A stretch of DNA of 40,963 bases, from IMG/VR virus record IMGVR_UViG_3300029105_000019; one strand, 5' to 3'. Of the stretch, positions 1-40,963 are shown piece by piece (positions within the stretch are counted from its first letter, which is position 1; every line of letters starts with the position of its first letter). Source of the stretch: a virus. A program made the position numbers and the translations under genes. The notes below the pieces were generated by a model. It was not told where the DNA came from. It worked only from the letters and a program-made list of their open reading frames with translations, and did no database searches.

Positions 1-145
1 CTGTTCCATGACGACAAGCTTTTCCGCAAGATCAAGACGCTGCTGAACGGCATCATGAAAAAGTTCTGCATCCTGCGCGGATACAGCGGCAAGACGATTT
101 TTGAGAACAACACCAACAACACCGGAAAAAAGGCTTTTGAAGCCG
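1..145 (+). repeat. Terminal overlap, left copy (identical to 40819-40963)
   Basis: Base-by-base comparison of both ends: ctgttccatgacgacaagc...ggcttttgaagccg, 145/145 identical. Confidence 0.97.
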
Positions 146-171
146 TAGAGGAGGGCATGACGGATGGCTAG
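1..171 (+). CDS. 3' end of the PLD/HKD-like protein gene (continuation of 40261..40963 across the circular junction)
   Basis: 40261..40963 is 703 nt, i.e. 234 codons plus 1 nt. Nt 145-147 complete the next codon, and the frame runs ...KKAFEAVEEGMTDG to TAG at 169-171. Confidence 0.85.
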   Translation: MFHDDKLFRKIKTLLNGIMKKFCILRGYSGKTIFENNTNNTGKKAFEAVEEGMTDG

Positions 172-6435: not shown

Positions 6436-6512
6436 GCCGCTATAGCTCAATCTGGCAGAGCCGCCGTCTTGTAATCGGCAGGTCGTAGGTTCAAATCCTA
6501 CTGGCGGCACCA
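6436..6512 (+). tRNA. tRNA-Thr (anticodon UGU), CCA encoded
   Basis: Manual cloverleaf. Acceptor is gccgcta/tggcggc. D arm is gctc-aatctggca-gagc. Anticodon arm is gccgt-CTTGTAA-tcggc with a T-T mismatch at 31-39. Variable loop is aggtc. T arm is gtagg-ttcaaat-cctac. Discriminator is A followed by CCA. Confidence 0.85.
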
Positions 6513-33035: not shown

Positions 33036-33262
33036 CACTGCAACGCCTTATCTTCGCCTGCTGCAACGTGTTTACAGGCGCAACCAGAATCAGAGTCATT
33101 GTCAACACCGGCAAGTTGATCTATCACGGCCTTTGGAACGACGGCTGCACCAAGGATTTCGGCGATTTGAAAGTCCTGGATTTTGAGATCGACGAGATCA
33201 AAAAGAATGGAGTGGCCAAAACACTGACCGCATGGGTCGTTAAGGAGGATCCCAATGAGTGA
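33032..33262 (+). CDS. Hypothetical protein (76 aa)
   Basis: Coupled to the upstream gene by an ATGA overlap. Confidence 0.55.
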   Translation: MTLQRLIFACCNVFTGATRIRVIVNTGKLIYHGLWNDGCTKDFGDLKVLDFEIDEIKKNGVAKTLTAWVVKEDPNE

Positions 33263-34010
33263 CAAAATTATCGCCTACAAGGGTATGGACGAGAATATGT
33301 GCTGCCGTGGCAAGCAGTACGAGATTGGCAAGACCTACACCGAGAACAAGGCCATCTGCTGTATCTCCGGTATGCATGCATGCGAGAACCCTCTGGACGT
33401 GTTCCAATACTACCGCCCAGACGGCAAGAACCGATTCTTCGAGGTCGAGTGCAACGGAGCTATCAACAAGGGAGAAAACGATAGCAAGCTTGCATGCACA
33501 GAGCTAAAGGTTACAGGCGAGCTTAGTTTGGCGAAATTTATTCGATTGTCTGTGCAAACAACTTTTGAGCGGGCAATGAACCGTGCAAAGAAAAAGACGT
33601 CCGGCGATCGCAGCAGCGCGGCAACGTCCGGCTATTCCAGCAGCGCGGCCACGTCCGGCAATTCCAGCAGCGCGGCAACGTCCGGCGATTCCAGCAGCGC
33701 GGCAACGTCCGGCGATTCCAGCAGCGCGGCAACGTCCGGCTATTCCAGCAGCGCGGCAACGTCCGGCGATTCCAGCAGCGCCACAGCCACAGGCGGCTAT
33801 TGCAGCGCACAAGCAGAAGGCAAAAACAGCCTTGCAATTGCAAACGGCGCTCATAGCAAGGCGCGTGGTGTGCTTGGCTGCTATCTGGTTTTGACCGAGT
33901 ATGACGATGGCGGAAAGCTTTTGTGGGCTAAGATTGCAAAGGTCGATGGCACTGCAATTAAGGAAAATGTCTGGTATACGCTCAAAAATGGAGAGTTTGA
34001 GGAGGCGTGA
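33255..34010 (+). CDS. Repeat-containing protein: Cys/His-rich N-domain, 7x SG(D/Y/N)SSSAAT, conserved C-domain
   Basis: Strong aaggagg RBS. The N-terminus is AYKGMDENMCCRGKQYEIGKTYTENKAICCISGMHACENPLDVFQYY, and the C-terminus is GCYLVLTEYDDGGKLLWAKIAKVDG. Confidence 0.75.
   Translation: MSDKIIAYKGMDENMCCRGKQYEIGKTYTENKAICCISGMHACENPLDVFQYYRPDGKNRFFEVECNGAINKGENDSKLACTELKVTGELSLAKFIRLSVQTTFERAMNRAKKKTSGDRSSAATSGYSSSAATSGNSSSAATSGDSSSAATSGDSSSAATSGYSSSAATSGDSSSATATGGYCSAQAEGKNSLAIANGAHSKARGVLGCYLVLTEYDDGGKLLWAKIAKVDGTAIKENVWYTLKNGEFEEA
33600..33788 (+). repeat. Seven tandem 27-bp in-frame repeats (plus a degenerate 8th to 33815)
   Basis: Units start at 33600, 33627, 33654, 33681, 33708, 33735 and 33762. 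They are near-identical except for the first base of codon 3 (gat/tat/aat) and a few other sites. Confidence 0.95.
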
Positions 34011-39382: not shown

Positions 39383-39552
39383 TTCGTGGCACTTTTCGAC
39401 AGTGGACATCATCGACACCTGAGCGGAATCGGTGGTATTGTAGTAGTATCGGCAGAGCCGAAAAGGCCAACCGATGCAGTTCAGCCCCCGAACATTCCGG
39501 CCCTGTGCTGTCCGTAGGTACAGGTCAACAACGTTTCGCGGGCTGCTTCTAT

Positions 39553-39656
39553 GCGAGATTTTGGAACGGCTCCATTCACAGGGCGGCGGCTCTGAGTGTC
39601 CGGGGGTGGGCGCGCACCTCCCTCTCCGCGTGGTTCGACTCCACGGTTTCGCACCA
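39553..39656 (+). ncRNA. tRNA-like 3' module (T arm + acceptor + CCA) without a canonical anticodon arm
   Basis: The 3' part is cgtgg-ttcgact-ccacg-gtttcgc-A-CCA (39629-39656). A possible 5' partner is gcgagat at 39553 (with G-U pairs) or gcggaat at 39423. A sliding search of the 54 nt between the D-like arm (tgga-acggc-tcca) and the T arm found no 5-bp/7-nt anticodon hairpin. Confidence 0.35.
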
Positions 39657-39773
39657 GATGGCGCATGGACTCATCCCCCACAAAGCTGCACGCTTAACCT
39701 CCCGTGCCACGAGAGAAAGCTTTGAATCCCTGAGGGTGTGGGTAGACTTCCCGACGGGATGTGCGTCAAACAA

Positions 39774-39802
39774 CAGCCCTGGCGGAGAACCAGGGCTGTT
39801 TT
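39774..39802 (+). terminator. Terminator-like hairpin inside the RNA island
   Basis: A perfect 9-bp stem cagccctgg/ccagggctg, 7-nt loop, then TTTT. Confidence 0.65.
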
Positions 39803-39807
39803 ATATG

Positions 39808-39876
39808 GCCGCCTGAGCGCAGTTTGGAGCGCGGCGCGTGTGTGTAGACACGGCTGGTTCGATTCCAAGGGCGGCG
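39808..39876 (+). pseudogene. Degenerate tRNA-like element
   Basis: The acceptor gccgcct/gggcggc and the D arm gcgc-agtttgga-gcgc are good. However, the anticodon hairpin cgtgt-GTGTAG-acacg has a 6-nt loop, and the T stem has only 3 bp around ttcgatt. Confidence 0.45.
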
Positions 39877-39882
39877 TTTTAT

Positions 39883-39958
39883 ATTCCCGTAGCTCAAGTG
39901 ATGGAGCAGCGGTCTCCAAAACCGCAGGCTGCAGGTTTGAGCCCTGCCGGGAATGCCA
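39883..39958 (+). tRNA. tRNA-Trp (anticodon CCA), CCA encoded
   Basis: A perfect 76-nt cloverleaf. Acceptor is attcccg/cgggaat. D arm is gctc-aagtgatg-gagc. Anticodon arm is gcggt-CTCCAAA-accgc. Variable loop is aggct. T arm is gcagg-tttgagc-cctgc. Discriminator is G followed by CCA. Confidence 0.9.
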
Positions 39959-40065
39959 GACTTTGCATGACCGGGGGACGGCATGCAGAGAGTAGCGGGG
40001 CATTCGGCCGCGAAAGTTCCGGATGCAGCGGCTTTGTGTACGACAGGCAAAGCTGCTTATTATAT

Positions 40066-40201
40066 GCCGCCATAGCTCAATTGGCAGAGCGCCGCCCATT
40101 TAAGGCGGGACAACGTTGGTGACACCATGGGAACATCACTGCACAGCCAACCACTGCGCACATCCATTCCGTGGGTGCTGGTTCAAATCCAGCTGGCGGC
40201 T
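40066..40201 (+). ncRNA. tRNA-like gene (paralog of the tRNA-Thr scaffold) with CAUUUAA anticodon loop and a 68-nt insertion at the variable-loop position
   Basis: Acceptor is gccgcca/tggcggc. D arm is gctc-aattggca-gagc. Anticodon arm is ccgcc-CATTTAA-ggcgg. A 68-nt insertion occupies 40109-40176. T arm is gctgg-ttcaaat-ccagc. The discriminator is T and no CCA is encoded. Confidence 0.5.
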
Positions 40202-40260
40202 CATTCGATTTTGACCGTTCGGGTTTCCGGGCGGCTTTTATTTTACAGGGAGGTGAGCAG

Positions 40261-40963
40261 ATGGCACGGAGAAAGAAAGCAATGGACTTTTCTTCCCTCG
40301 ACCTAAACCTTGATGCACTGGGAGACTGGGGAGGCGACGAGGAAAAGGCCGAGAAAGAGTTCATCCGCGCTGCAAAGCTGAACCTCTCCCCGGTCACATG
40401 GGACAACGCAGAAGCGGCAGCGGACGCGGTGGACTACGACAAGGATTATTTTGCGCTCCTAAGTGGGCGCTTTATTTTTGGCGACTTCATCGAGGCGCTG
40501 GTCTACAAAAAAGAACTGCTGCCGCACCGGGTATACATCACAACACTGGGCATGAGCCGGGAGAACATAGACAGCATCGTCAACATTGCCGGGTATCTGG
40601 GCTGCGAGCAGCTGAACCTGATCGTGTCCAACTACTTTGTGGCAATGGAGCGGGCAAAGCTGGTGCCCTACATGATCTCCCAGTTTACTGGGCAGCATAT
40701 CAACGTTGCTGTTCTGGCATCGCATTGCAAGATTTGCCTGATCGAGAGTGACAAGGGCAATCTGATCATCATGGGCAGCGCAAACCTGTCCAGTTCCAAC
40801 AACGTGGAGCAGATCATGCTGTTCCATGACGACAAGCTTTTCCGCAAGATCAAGACGCTGCTGAACGGCATCATGAAAAAGTTCTGCATCCTGCGCGGAT
40901 ACAGCGGCAAGACGATTTTTGAGAACAACACCAACAACACCGGAAAAAAGGCTTTTGAAGCCG
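40261..40963 (+). CDS. PLD/HKD-superfamily protein (single HKD-like motif), 5' part; continues at 1..171 (242 aa total)
   Basis: gggaggtg RBS before the ATG at 40261. The motif HCKICLIESDKGNLIIMGSANLSSSN (nt ~40723-40785) resembles HxK(x)4D(x)6GSxN, but with Glu at the Asp position and a longer spacer. The ORF is open to the window end. Confidence 0.7.
   Translation, partial: MARRKKAMDFSSLDLNLDALGDWGGDEEKAEKEFIRAAKLNLSPVTWDNAEAAADAVDYDKDYFALLSGRFIFGDFIEALVYKKELLPHRVYITTLGMSRENIDSIVNIAGYLGCEQLNLIVSNYFVAMERAKLVPYMISQFTGQHINVAVLASHCKICLIESDKGNLIIMGSANLSSSNNVEQIMLFHDDKLFRKIKTLLNGIMKKFCILRGYSGKTIFENNTNNTGKKAFEA
40819..40963 (+). repeat. Terminal overlap, right copy (identical to 1-145)
   Basis: Same comparison as for 1-145. 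Confidence 0.97.

What the first reader, a model, noticed from the sequence alone, without database searches (positions are those of the whole stretch)
40066..40201. Thr-tRNA paralog rewired to a Lys-like CAUUUAA loop (A33 instead of U33) and split by a 68-nt insertion before the T arm
The acceptor (gccgcca/tggcggc), the D arm and the T loop (ttcaaat) are nearly identical to those of the tRNA-Thr at 6436, so the two are paralogs.

The anticodon stem (ccgcc/ggcgg) is perfect, but the 7-nt loop reads C-A-U-U-U-A-A. That is a UUU (Lys) anticodon preceded by A where U33 is almost universal. A register-shifted UUA (ochre-suppressor) reading destroys the stem, so I reject it.

Between the anticodon stem and the T stem lie 68 nt (40109-40176) instead of the usual 4-5, or up to about 21 in class II tRNAs. 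Part of this can pair (cacc-atg-ggaa / ttcc-gtg-ggtg). No CCA is encoded, and the discriminator is U.

Bacterial tRNA introns are normally group I elements in the anticodon loop, so a short variable-position insertion is atypical. It could be a pseudogene. It could equally be a processed or intron-like tRNA, or a tRNA-Lys mimic, and tRNA-Lys(UUU) is the classic target of the PrrC-type anticodon nuclease. The decoy idea is pure hypothesis.
Basis: partly seen in the sequence, partly recalled or inferred. Interest (0 to 1): 0.7.

Follow-up and report, generated by a model that had tools for sequence, protein, structure and literature searches.

The report
Phage tRNA-Lys look-alike with giant extra arm
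This is a real, conserved phage gene for a 136-nt tRNA-shaped RNA that copies the anticodon arm of lysine tRNA except for one near-universal base (U33 is A) and carries a 68-nt folded extra arm; it belongs to a previously undescribed family in gut phages that probably helps them cope with host enzymes that attack tRNAs.

Summary
Window 40066-40201 (+) matches the Rfam tRNA model at 50.2 bits, with about 68 extra nt between the anticodon and T arms. The loop reads C-A-U-U-U-A-A. The body is near-identical to the phage's own tRNA-Thr.

It is not a pseudogene. I recovered at least 220 loci and more than 127 distinct sequences from gut phage contigs, gut metagenomes and Faecalibacterium prophages. 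Compensatory changes occur in the acceptor stem, the T stem and the base of the extra arm.

The extra arm comes in about 10 sequence types with one architecture. A conserved linker (UGRY) covaries with the apical loop (RYCA), which suggests a pseudoknot.

The 17-nt anticodon arm equals an ordinary tRNA-Lys(UUU) arm except for U33A.

Relatives found through the arm alone carry Asn (GUU), Ser (GCU), Arg (UCU) or Thr (UGU) anticodons. All of these read ANN codons, and most have A33.

At least 21 relatives also encode a normal U33 tRNA-Lys(UUU), once in the same cassette. So X is not simply a spare lysine tRNA.

Best reading, which is inferred: a non-decoding tRNA mimic or decoy, or less likely a cleavage-proof surrogate, aimed at a host nuclease that attacks ANN-decoding tRNAs. 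This is a new variant of a known kind. No experiment exists.

The parts
40066..40201 (+). tRNA-X: a 136-nt non-canonical tRNA. It has a Thr/Lys-type chassis, a Lys(UUU) anticodon arm with A33, and an expanded variable arm.
   Evidence: Rfam tRNA at 50.2 bits. Cloverleaf fold. Across 89 relatives 94.5% of cells are paired and 12 pairs show double changes, with 0 of 500 shuffles as good.
40092..40108 (+). Anticodon arm CCGCC-CAUUUAA-GGCGG. A33 is at 40098 and the UUU anticodon at 40099-40101.
   Evidence: Read directly. The loop is invariant in 123 of 123 loci retrieved through the arm core. It is identical to ordinary tRNA-Lys(UUU) arms except for U33.
40109..40124 (+). Conserved start of the variable domain, GACAACGUUGGUGACA. 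The UGGU at 40117-40120 is the linker segment that covaries with the apical loop.
   Evidence: Conserved in all arm types. Columns 52-55 pair with columns 106-109 in 94.2% of cells, with 29 double-change cells against 6.0 +/- 2.0 in shuffles. RNAalifold predicts this pairing on its own.
40125..40176 (+). Long irregular hairpin of the variable arm. The base helix CCAUGGGA/UUCCGUGG closes next to the T stem.
   Evidence: Fold. The base helix shows GC<->AU double changes in 29 sequences. About 10 sequence types share this architecture.
40147..40153 (+). Apical loop CCAACCA. It contains the ACCA that is complementary to the linker UGGU.
40177..40193 (+). T arm GCUGG-UUCAAAU-CCAGC.
   Evidence: The U-A pair is replaced by C-G in 28 of 89 relatives.
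39808..39875 (+). L1, the cassette partner. It is a tRNA-shaped RNA with acceptor, D and 3-bp T arms, but a variable hairpin with a 6- or 9-nt loop in place of an anticodon arm.
   Evidence: Weak tRNA-Sec-like match, 16 bits. Two hairpin variants across 48 sequences. The L002 copy folds as a cloverleaf. The L1-Trp-spacer-X order is present in 96 of 158 loci.
39883..39958 (+). Canonical tRNA-Trp(CCA), the second gene of the cassette.
   Evidence: ARAGORN. Rfam 58.2 bits.
39960..40056 (+). Spacer with three stable hairpins. The middle one has a conserved CGCGAAAG loop.
   Evidence: Fold at -48.7 kcal/mol, z = -5.4. The middle hairpin keeps its pairing through CGG/CCG to CAG/CUG changes in L002 (by inspection).
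39774..39802 (+). Hairpin plus U-run immediately upstream of the cassette. It looks like a terminator.
   Evidence: Sequence cagccctgg-cggagaa-ccagggctg-tttt. It is conserved in L001, L002, L239, L241 and L242. The terminator scan did not list it, so this is an inference.
40215..40244 (+). Intrinsic-terminator-like hairpin and T-run that close the cassette.
6436..6512 (+). Canonical tRNA-Thr(UGU), with U33 and an encoded CCA. It is the chassis paralog of tRNA-X.
   Evidence: In 21 relatives a canonical tRNA-Lys(UUU) with a similar body is encoded as well. In L025 it lies about 6.6 kb downstream of X, comparable to the about 7.2 kb from X to this tRNA-Thr if the window is circular. The shared position is an inference.

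Best explanation
**What it is.** tRNA-X is a functional phage RNA gene. It folds as a normal L-shaped tRNA but is built to be recognised as an ANN-decoding tRNA without behaving like one.

**Expression (inferred).** It is transcribed with L1 and tRNA-Trp from a small RNA cassette. The cassette lies between the late-activator gene and the packaging genes and is bounded by terminator-like hairpins. Its canonical acceptor, T and D arms should make it a substrate for the normal tRNA end-processing enzymes.

**What it displays (shown).** The mature RNA carries an exact copy of a tRNA-Lys(UUU) anticodon stem-loop in which the U-turn base U33 is A. From the variable pocket it projects a 68-nt domain whose apical loop appears to pair back onto the linker at its base, forming a pseudoknot.

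**How it most likely works (inferred).** It acts as a bait for a host factor that recognises the anticodon arms of ANN-decoding tRNAs (Lys, Asn, Ser-AGY, Arg-AGR, Thr). The best candidate is a defence tRNase of the PARIS-AriB, PrrC or RloC kind. X would then titrate or block the nuclease while genuine tRNAs, from host or phage, keep translation going.

**Status of each step.** Shown: the structure, its conservation, the ANN-decoder anticodons of every member in which the anticodon could be read, and coexistence with normal tRNA-Lys. Inferred: transcription and processing, binding to a nuclease, and resistance to cleavage.
For: 1. **Selection on tRNA shape.** 94.5% of cells are paired across 89 distinct relatives. 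Double compensatory changes occur in the acceptor stem (CG<->UA 14, AU<->GC 11), the T stem (UA<->CG 28) and the arm base (GC<->AU 29). No shuffle out of 500 does as well.
2. **The anticodon arm copies tRNA-Lys(UUU) except at position 33**.
   - The loop is invariant in 123 of 123 loci retrieved through the arm core only.
   - L454 keeps the loop CAUUUAA on a completely different stem, GCGGG/CCCGC.
3. **All members with a readable anticodon are ANN decoders.** Members retrieved through the arm motif alone have loops C-A-GUU-AA (Asn, 7 loci), U-A-GCU-AA (Ser, 4 loci), C-A-UCU-AA (Arg, L434) and 8-nt loops ending UCU-AA or UGU-AA. All end U36-A37-A38, and all but one lack a normal U33 context. 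L442's anticodon arm could not be read. The background in 722 ordinary tRNAs from the same loci is U33 685, C33 29, A33 7, G33 1.
4. **X is not the phage's lysine supply.**
   - 21 of 213 X-Lys loci also encode a canonical U33 tRNA-Lys(UUU).
   - L340 has X-Lys, L1 and a canonical tRNA-Lys within about 300 nt.
   - All 7 X-Asn loci have a canonical tRNA-Lys next door.
5. **Weak signs of a non-decoding role.**
   - The discriminator base is free: U 75, A 55, G 2, C 1.
   - The cassette partner L1 has no anticodon loop at all.
6. **Literature.**
   - The bacterial t6A37 enzyme TsaBCDE needs U33; U33C abolishes modification (PMC8887486). From my own knowledge, tRNA-Lys(UUU) decoding depends unusually strongly on anticodon-loop modifications.
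   - PARIS AriB targets exactly Lys(UUU), Thr(UGU) and Asn(GUU). The authors raise the possibility that over-expressed viral tRNAs inhibit AriB (PMC12409363).
   - Phage tRNAs are thought to escape tRNases through anticodon-loop changes (PMC10264068).
7. **The arm is a conserved folded domain.** The linker UGRY pairs with the loop RYCA in 94.2% of cells, with 29 double-change cells against 6.0 in shuffles.
Against: - No expression, processing, charging or binding data exist.
- No host nuclease has been identified, and I could not retrieve the Faecalibacterium tRNA-Lys to test mimicry of the host arm.
- A33 does not block anticodon nucleases in general. K. lactis gamma-toxin cuts a U33A stem-loop better than the wild type (PMC2275089).
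- A roughly 98-nt aptamer inserted in the variable loop leaves an E. coli tRNA active in translation (PMC5397188). Size alone therefore does not exclude decoding.
- In the window itself X is the only Lys-type tRNA. The 'surrogate' reading fits this genome as well as the decoy reading does.
- X is dispensable in some relatives. L241 lacks it cleanly and L239 lacks the whole cassette.
- The role of the arm's specific conserved motifs is unexplained.
Confidence: 0.4

Rival explanations
1. **Cleavage-proof working tRNA.** X is aminoacylated with Lys (LysRS reads the UUU anticodon) and decodes AAA/AAG. A33 and the arm make it invisible or resistant to a host tRNase that destroys host tRNA-Lys. It would play the role that T5 tRNA-Lys plays against PARIS.
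For: - The whole tRNA core is canonical: U8, A14, G18G19, T-loop UUCAAAU and a 7-bp acceptor stem.
- In the window there is no other Lys tRNA.
- 41% of Lys codons in 15 phage genes are AAA.
- Large variable-loop insertions are tolerated by the ribosome (PMC5397188).
- Six of 133 members, and the arm-less L201 copy, encode CCA.
- The phage group also carries Thr(UGU), Lys(UUU) and Asn(GUU) genes, which is the PARIS target set (PMC12409363).
Against: - It coexists with a canonical tRNA-Lys(UUU) in at least 21 genomes and once in the same cassette.
- Loss of U33 is expected to remove the U-turn and, in bacteria, t6A37 (PMC8887486). That is a heavy cost for a UUU anticodon.
- The discriminator is not conserved.
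- If the aim were escape, changes in the stem would do, as in T5. Instead the arm is kept identical to ordinary tRNA-Lys arms.
Confidence: 0.25
2. **tRNA as a scaffold.** The functional part is the pseudoknotted variable-arm domain, acting as a protein- or ligand-binding module or a regulator of late or packaging functions. The tRNA body only provides stability and defined ends.
For: - The arm has conserved motifs across very different tRNA bodies: G-NCA(A)C...UGRY-GA-YAC and an apical loop with consensus NYYARYCAC. These occur in L434, L442, L462 and L470 as well as the gut lineages.
- Covariation supports a defined fold.
- The position just upstream of terS, HNH or terL is constant.
Against: - It does not explain why the anticodon loop is invariant.
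- It does not explain why every anticodon that could be read is of the ANN-decoder type.
- It does not explain why A33 recurs with four different anticodons.
- The arm stems change freely.
- The arm has no significant complement elsewhere in the phage genome.
- One natural copy, L201, has lost the arm but kept the rest.
Confidence: 0.17
3. **Intron-like insert.** The 68 nt are removed after transcription to give a tRNA of about 76 nt.
For: - The natural L201 copy lacks the arm and is called tRNA-Lys(UUU) by ARAGORN.
- In type 2 arms a GGCGGG repeat flanks the deleted segment.
Against: - There are about 10 unrelated arm sequences with no conserved catalytic core.
- No Rfam intron or ribozyme family matches, even at E up to 10.
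- The predicted folds show a helix-closed arm and no bulge-helix-bulge at the borders.
- Bacterial tRNA introns are group I elements in the anticodon loop (established knowledge).
- L201 is 1 of more than 220 loci, and recombination between the GGCGGG repeats explains it.
- Removing the arm would not repair A33.
Confidence: 0.05
4. **Class II-style recoding tRNA.** The long arm makes X a substrate of a synthetase that reads the variable arm rather than the anticodon, such as SerRS. ANN codons would then be partly mistranslated.
For: - L470 has a normal Ser(GCU) loop on the same architecture.
- Other gut-phage class II tRNAs with A33 exist: L263, L269 and L288.
- SerRS ignores the anticodon (established knowledge).
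Against: - The arm starts with an extra linker and pseudoknot, and its geometry is unlike a class II arm.
- Mistranslating Lys codons would damage the phage's own proteins.
- No in-frame anomalies were seen in the 15 window genes examined.
Confidence: 0.04
5. **Decaying pseudogene** of a duplicated tRNA.
For: - ARAGORN does not call it.
- It has A33 and no CCA.
- Some relatives have lost it.
Against: - More than 127 distinct sequences keep every stem through compensatory changes.
- The loop is invariant.
- The arm architecture is conserved across about 10 types and several phage lineages.
Confidence: 0.01

Closest known systems
Phage tRNAs that counter tRNA-cleaving defences: T5 tRNA-Lys(UUU), Thr(UGU) and Asn(GUU) against PARIS AriB, and phage tRNAs with anticodon-loop mutations (PMC12409363, PMC10264068, PMC11555353)
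   Same: - They are phage-encoded.
- They have the same anticodon identities, Lys UUU, Asn GUU and Thr UGU, all ANN decoders.
- They deviate from host-type tRNAs in the anticodon arm.
- They sit alongside ordinary phage tRNAs.
   Different: - Known cases are normal-sized class I tRNAs with U33. They escape through stem or loop substitutions and work by replacing the cut tRNA.
- X keeps the ordinary arm sequence, changes only the near-universal U33, and adds a 53-100-nt structured arm.
- X coexists with a normal tRNA-Lys.
- No defence system has been linked to X.
Class II tRNAs (bacterial Leu, Ser, Tyr, Sec) and allo-tRNAs
   Same: They have an extra helix that emerges between the anticodon and T arms.
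   Different: - Class II arms have up to about 21 nt and form one simple hairpin.
- X has 68 nt (53-100 across the family), with a conserved linker, an irregular hairpin and a loop-linker pairing.
- The identities Lys, Asn and Arg are class I everywhere else.
Engineered aptamer-tRNA fusions in the variable loop (V-Spinach tRNA, PMC5397188; aptamer-tagged allo-tRNAs, PMC7590224)
   Same: They have the same insertion site and comparable size (183 nt in total for V-Spinach). They show that such RNAs can be stable and even translate.
   Different: They are synthetic. Those authors state that the size exceeds any natural tRNA. X would be a natural counterpart.
Non-decoding tRNA mimics: the tRNA-like domain of bacterial and phage YrlA/Y RNAs, the tmRNA tRNA-like domain, and plant-virus tRNA-like structures
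   Same: They are tRNA-shaped RNAs used for something other than ordinary decoding, and the tRNA processing and modifying enzymes handle them.
   Different: - Those lack a true anticodon arm. X has a complete one.
- No Rfam family other than tRNA matches X.
- The cassette partner L1 is closer to this class than X is.
Interrupted tRNA genes: bacterial group I introns in the anticodon loop, and archaeal bulge-helix-bulge introns at non-canonical positions
   Same: The tRNA gene is longer than the mature consensus.
   Different: - X differs in position, size and chemistry.
- It has no conserved intron core, no bulge-helix-bulge, and its host is bacterial.

Membership tests
tRNA (Rfam RF00005) | Cloverleaf with 7-bp acceptor, D, anticodon and T arms, scoring above the family threshold | tested here: met
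   50.2 bits against a gathering score of 29, model 1-71. Pairs are conserved with compensatory changes.
tRNA (Rfam RF00005) | Conserved core residues for the L-shape: U8, A14, G18G19, T-loop UUCRANY | tested here: met
   Read directly in the window copy. The types 4-6 relatives have a shortened D loop (AAGCA) without GG.
tRNA (Rfam RF00005) | U33 preceding the anticodon in a 7-nt loop | tested here: not met
   A33 in the window and in 123 of 123 relatives. The background is U33 in 685 of 722 ordinary tRNAs.
tRNA (functional decoder) | 3' CCA end, aminoacylation and use on the ribosome | not testable with these tools
   CCA is encoded in only 6 of 133 members, but a CCA-adding enzyme could supply it. 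There are no charging data.
tRNA-Lys(UUU) | Anticodon UUU in the context C32-U33-UUU-A37-A38 on a Lys-type body with a conserved discriminator | tested here: not met
   UUU, C32, A37 and A38 are present. However, position 33 is A, the body is Thr-type and the discriminator varies: U 75, A 55.
Class II (long-arm) tRNA | Variable arm of about 10-21 nt forming a single hairpin, with identity Leu, Ser, Tyr or Sec | tested here: not met
   The arm is 68 nt with a linker, an irregular hairpin and a loop-linker pairing. The anticodon is Lys.
Group I intron in a tRNA gene | Insert of more than 200 nt in the anticodon loop with a P1-P9 core | tested here: not met
   The insert is 68 nt, lies after position 44, and gives no Rfam intron match at E up to 10.
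Archaeal-type spliced tRNA intron | Bulge-helix-bulge (3-4-3) motif at the exon-intron borders, and a splicing endonuclease in the host | tested here: not met
   The folds show a continuous closing helix and no bulge-helix-bulge. Shine-Dalgarno sites and Faecalibacterium prophages indicate a bacterial host.
Phage anti-tRNase tRNA (T5 type) | Phage-encoded tRNA of an identity targeted by a defence tRNase, carrying changes that prevent cleavage and rescuing infection | tested here: inconclusive
   Identity and sequence deviation are met. Resistance to cleavage and rescue of infection cannot be tested with these tools.
Y RNA-like (YrlA) or tmRNA tRNA-like domains | A match to those covariance models, no anticodon arm, and a partner protein gene (rsr or smpB) nearby | tested here: not met
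   No such Rfam match. A complete anticodon arm is present. No Rsr-like family among the 10 neighbouring proteins scanned against PHROGs.

The most novel reading that the evidence does not exclude
Gut phages carry an RNA-only counter-defence. A tRNA chassis bears a pseudoknotted variable-arm domain and an A33 'dead' anticodon loop. It acts as an uncleavable bait that sequesters defence nucleases, or other sensors, specific for ANN-decoding tRNAs. The anticodon is swapped (Lys, Asn, Ser, Arg, Thr) to match the nuclease of the host. This would be the first natural tRNA with an aptamer-sized variable domain and the first RNA decoy for a tRNase.
Probability: 0.3. Interest if true: 0.85.

Novelty: new variant of a known kind. 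Interest (0 to 1): 0.72.

Why it matters
- **Relevance to phage defence.** tRNA cleavage is emerging as one of the commonest bacterial anti-phage strategies (PARIS, PrrC/RloC, retron effectors, Septu, Schlafen, Cas12a3). Phage tRNAs are the known countermeasure. All known examples are ordinary-looking tRNAs.
- **What is different here.** This family is abundant in human-gut Faecalibacterium-type phages. It pairs loss of the almost universal U33 with a structured arm larger than any reported natural tRNA arm. It is often encoded beside a normal tRNA of the same anticodon.
- **If it is a decoy.** It would be a new, purely RNA-based way of disarming tRNases, and a handle for finding the still unknown tRNA-targeting defences of a key gut commensal.
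- **If it decodes.** It would extend the known structural limits of natural tRNAs.
- **Annotation gap.** Standard tRNA finders miss it: ARAGORN gave no call. The family is therefore probably absent from phage annotations.

Tried and rejected
1. **Pseudogene.** Rejected by covariation and loop invariance.
2. **Register-shifted UUA (ochre suppressor) anticodon.** The alternative stem has 2 of 5 mismatches by inspection. The 15 window genes examined each read through to a single terminal stop (7 TAA, 1 TAG, 7 TGA). A 'shifted U-turn' UUA reading cannot be excluded, but nothing supports it.
3. **Known ribozyme, intron or other RNA family in the insert.** None was found at E up to 10. The only extra hit, Plastid-ycf2 on the minus strand, is a tRNA-antisense artefact.
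4. **The arm acting as antisense to a phage transcript.** Only chance matches of 10-12 nt or fewer occur in the window.
5. **First test of the loop-linker pairing.** Composition-preserving shuffles of each loop gave no significance. Both partners are compositionally biased, so the test is insensitive. The column-wise test on the alignment supports the pairing. It rests on about two independent double substitutions.
6. **Mini-hairpin (positions 44-47 with 52-55) as the partner of the linker.** Only 78% of cells pair, and the dominant types have an A.G mismatch. It may be an alternative conformer.
7. **Encoded CCA as evidence against function.** Dropped, because the neighbouring tRNA-Trp also lacks CCA in L001 and L002.
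8. **A wasted scan.** One viral-contig scan used the wrong D-loop spacing and returned only unrelated tRNAs.
9. **Search for family members with U33 and the same arm.** None was found among the Lys types. One Ser-type member, L470, has U33.
10. **Cultured-phage relatives.** None was found. blastn with the window locus finds only three unannotated faecal contigs, the L462 member finds nothing, and the best TerL hits are below 53% identity.
11. **Literature.** Five full-text searches found no description of this family.
Full report
**1.

Rfam's tRNA model matches window 40066-40201 (+) over its full length at 50.2 bits, against a threshold of 29, with E = 5.8e-08. A single long insertion lies after model position 44. 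ARAGORN finds only tRNA-Thr(UGU) at 6436-6512 and tRNA-Trp(CCA) at 39883-39958.

Read directly:
- the acceptor stem is GCCGCCA/UGGCGGC;
- the D arm and T loop are canonical;
- the anticodon stem CCGCC/GGCGG is perfect;
- the 7-nt loop is C-A-U-U-U-A-A, with A33 at 40098;
- 40109-40176 (68 nt) separate the anticodon and T arms;
- the discriminator is U, and no CCA follows.

The minimum-free-energy fold is a cloverleaf with an extra arm. The body is 24/27 and 20/25 identical to the phage's tRNA-Thr. The T-stem differences are paired changes.

**2. It is a widespread, selected gene and not a pseudogene**

An exact 22-mer from the insert core occurs in at least 119 IMG/VR contigs. The 17-nt anticodon arm occurs in at least 120. 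Further copies lie in human-gut metagenome contigs and in prophages of Faecalibacterium genomes assembled from metagenomes.

In all I hold more than 220 loci and more than 127 distinct sequences.

Retrieval through the upstream late-activator protein does not depend on the RNA sequence. It gave 12 relatives, 9 of which carry the long form.

On an alignment of 89 distinct sequences the proposed structure fits well:
- 94.5% of cells are paired;
- 12 pairs show double changes, and 0 of 500 shuffles do as well;
- the acceptor stem shows CG<->UA in 14 sequences and AU<->GC in 11;
- the T stem shows UA<->CG in 28;
- the base of the extra arm shows GC<->AU in 29.

RNAalifold recovers the cloverleaf on its own.

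Natural losses exist. L241 lacks X precisely. L239 lacks the whole cassette. L242 carries a Trp/X fusion deletion. One Faecalibacterium prophage, L201, holds a 78-nt arm-less copy, which ARAGORN calls tRNA-Lys(UUU). A deletion between GGCGGG repeats explains it.

**3. The insert is an expanded, folded variable arm**

About 10 unrelated arm sequences of 53-87 nt share one plan:
- G44;
- a conserved stretch G-N-C-A-(A)-C ... U-G-R-Y-G-A-Y-A-C;
- a long irregular hairpin that closes directly against the T stem;
- an A/C-rich apical loop.

The linker UGRY covaries with loop RYCA in three classes:
- UGGU with ACCA;
- UGAU with AUCA;
- UGAC with GUCA.

RNAalifold predicts this pairing unprompted. 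Column-wise counting gives 94.2% paired cells. There are 29 double-change cells against 6.0 +/- 2.0 in shuffles (0 of 500), and all slid controls score far lower.

This rests on roughly two independent double substitutions. I therefore call the pseudoknot supported but not proven.

An earlier test that shuffled each loop was not significant. The alternative mini-hairpin is less well supported, at 78% paired.

Nothing in Rfam other than tRNA matches the region. The arm has no meaningful complement elsewhere in the phage.

**4. The anticodon arm is a Lys(UUU) arm with one change**

A scan for the same 17-mer with any base other than A at position 33 returned 71 hits. Most were ordinary tRNA-Lys(UUU) genes of unrelated phages, with the arm CCGCC-CUUUUAA-GGCGG, and the rest were not tRNAs. 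No member of this family was among them.

The loop CAUUUAA is invariant in 123 of 123 loci retrieved only through the arm core, although the stem shows occasional mutations. L454 keeps the loop on a fully different stem.

**5. The family is wider than Lys**

Retrieval through the arm's 5' motif alone, a covariance model built from the alignment and inspection of its longer hits found members with other loops:
- C-A-GUU-AA: Asn, 7 loci;
- U-A-GCU-AA: Ser-AGY, 4 loci;
- C-A-UCU-AA: Arg-AGR, L434;
- 8-nt loops ending UCU-AA (L462) and UGU-AA (L438);
- a normal U-U-GCU-AA (L470).

L442's anticodon arm could not be read.

Some of these sit on quite different tRNA bodies, in larger phages with lower G+C.

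Every readable anticodon ends in U36 followed by A37 and A38, so all are ANN decoders. Nearly all lack a normal U33.

Among 722 ordinary tRNAs from the same loci the counts are U33 685, C33 29, A33 7 and G33 1.

**6. Context**

The window is a temperate siphovirus-type genome of about 41 kb and 53% G+C. Its genes include SSB, RusA, a late transcriptional activator, TerL, portal and a head-morphogenesis/protease-like protein.

X is the last gene of a cassette with this order:
- a hairpin plus U-run at 39774-39802;
- L1 at 39808-39875, a tRNA-shaped RNA with a variable hairpin in place of an anticodon arm;
- tRNA-Trp;
- three stable hairpins;
- X;
- a terminator-like hairpin at 40215-40244.

The cassette lies between the late activator and the packaging genes. 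In relatives, terS or an HNH gene follows directly. The order L1-Trp-spacer-X is present in 96 of 158 loci.

**7. X is not simply the phage's lysine tRNA**

Of 213 X-Lys loci, 21 also encode a canonical U33 tRNA-Lys(UUU) with an encoded CCA. This is a lower bound, because each locus covers only part of a genome.

In L025 it lies about 6.6 kb downstream of X. That is comparable to the roughly 7.2 kb from X to tRNA-Thr in the window if the genome is circular, which is an inference.

L340 has X-Lys, L1 and a canonical tRNA-Lys in one cassette. All seven X-Asn loci have a canonical tRNA-Lys next door.

The discriminator base of X is free: U 75, A 55, G 2, C 1.

**8. Mechanism**

*Shown.* X is a conserved L-shaped RNA. 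It displays an ordinary ANN-decoder anticodon arm that lacks U33, and it carries a folded extra domain. It is often redundant with a normal tRNA of the same anticodon.

*From the literature:*
- Bacterial TsaBCDE requires U33 for t6A37 (PMC8887486).
- PARIS AriB cuts Lys(UUU), Thr(UGU) and Asn(GUU), and T5 needs its own versions of these tRNAs. The authors note that viral tRNAs might also inhibit AriB (PMC12409363).
- Phage tRNAs are proposed to evade tRNases through anticodon-loop changes (PMC10264068).
- Septu cleaves the variable loop of tRNA-Tyr (PMC13096335, abstract).
- A roughly 98-nt insert in the variable loop is compatible with translation (PMC5397188).
- Gamma-toxin cuts a U33A stem-loop better than the wild type (PMC2275089).

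*Inference.* X most likely serves in the conflict over ANN-decoding tRNAs. My confidences are:

| Reading | Confidence |
|---|---|
| Non-decoding bait or inhibitor | 0.40 |
| Cleavage-proof working tRNA | 0.25 |
| tRNA scaffold for an arm-centred function | 0.17 |
| Splicing | 0.05 |
| Class II-style recoding | 0.04 |
| Pseudogene | 0.01 |

**9. Comparison and novelty**

It scores as a tRNA but fails the U33 criterion. It is not a class II tRNA, an intron-bearing tRNA, a Y-RNA/tmRNA-type mimic or a known ribozyme.

The nearest functional analogues are the T5-type anti-PARIS tRNAs. The nearest structural analogues are synthetic variable-loop aptamer fusions.

I found no paper describing this family, and no cultured phage carries it.

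I rate it a new variant of a known kind, that is, of phage-encoded non-canonical tRNAs. Interest is 0.72. The structure and distribution are solid and surprising. The function is inferred.

Noticed in passing
window 39808-39875 (+): L1 is a second tRNA-shaped RNA. It has a 7-bp acceptor stem, a D arm and a 3-bp T stem with a UUCGAUU loop. Where the anticodon arm should be there is a variable hairpin with a 6-nt GUGUAG or a 9-nt UGAGAUAUU loop, and the length of a GU repeat varies. No tRNA finder calls it, and it is conserved next to X in most loci. It is probably a non-decoding tRNA mimic in its own right.
   Followed up: partly
window 39960-40056 (+): The spacer between tRNA-Trp and X folds into three very stable hairpins (z = -5.4). 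The middle one has a conserved CGCGAAAG loop and keeps its pairing through CGG/CCG to CAG/CUG changes in L002. Its function is unknown. It could be a processing or terminator element.
   Followed up: partly
window 39383-39773 (+): About 390 nt of non-coding sequence lie between the late-activator gene and the cassette. Blocks are conserved in distant relatives (L239, L241, L242), for example GGATGTGCG[TC]CAACA just before the terminator-like hairpin. A promoter-like site lies at 39412-39441. There is no Rfam match. It could be a late-operon leader, an antitermination element or a cos region.
   Followed up: partly
L052 12406-12481 (-) (and one further locus with the identical sequence, not named in the output): In two relatives the cassette's tRNA-Trp has the anticodon CUA in place of CCA (loop CUCUAAA). 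That makes it an amber suppressor on a Trp body. It hints at UAG read-through or recoding in part of this phage group.
   Followed up: no
L025 6862-6938; L340 4114-4189; 19 further loci: Canonical tRNA-Lys(UUU) genes on the same GCCG... chassis are encoded in these relatives. In L025 the gene lies about 6.6 kb downstream of X, comparable to the X-to-tRNA-Thr(UGU) distance in the window. This suggests anticodon switching (Thr to Lys) at one locus within this phage group. L237 holds a decayed copy with a 5-nt loop.
   Followed up: partly
L263, L269, L288 (90-nt class II-type tRNAs): Another gut-phage lineage has long-arm tRNAs with A33: loops G-A-GUU-AA (Asn anticodon) and G-A-GUA-GA (Tyr). A33 combined with a long variable arm therefore recurs outside the X family.
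   Followed up: no
All fetched loci (722 distinct ARAGORN tRNAs): C33 occurs in 29 of 722 phage tRNAs (4%), often in Asn, Lys, Glu, Asp and Val genes. That is far more often than expected for a 'universal' U33.
   Followed up: no
L022 5780-5856; L241 3262-3335: This is an odd tRNA that ARAGORN reports with a 4-base anticodon, 'attg'. Its anticodon 'stem' GCAGC...GCAGC is not self-complementary. It resembles a diverged Asn tRNA (compare L335 4029-4105).
   Followed up: no
window 33597-33781: A 27-bp tandem repeat is present in 6.9 copies at 94% identity, inside ORF 33255-34010. It could encode a 9-residue protein repeat, or it could be iterons of a replication origin.
   Followed up: partly
window 40261-40963 and window 1-160: The ORF that follows the cassette carries an H-x-K motif in HCKICLIESD and hits a PHROG endonuclease family weakly, which suggests a PLD/HKD-like protein. 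It runs off the window end. The window is probably a circularly permuted complete genome, so this ORF may continue at position 1.
   Followed up: no
L179 (CAVEID010000025.1, labelled Oxalobacter sp. MAG): A type 2 X copy sits on a 24-kb contig binned as Oxalobacter. It is most likely a mis-binned Clostridia phage contig.
   Followed up: no
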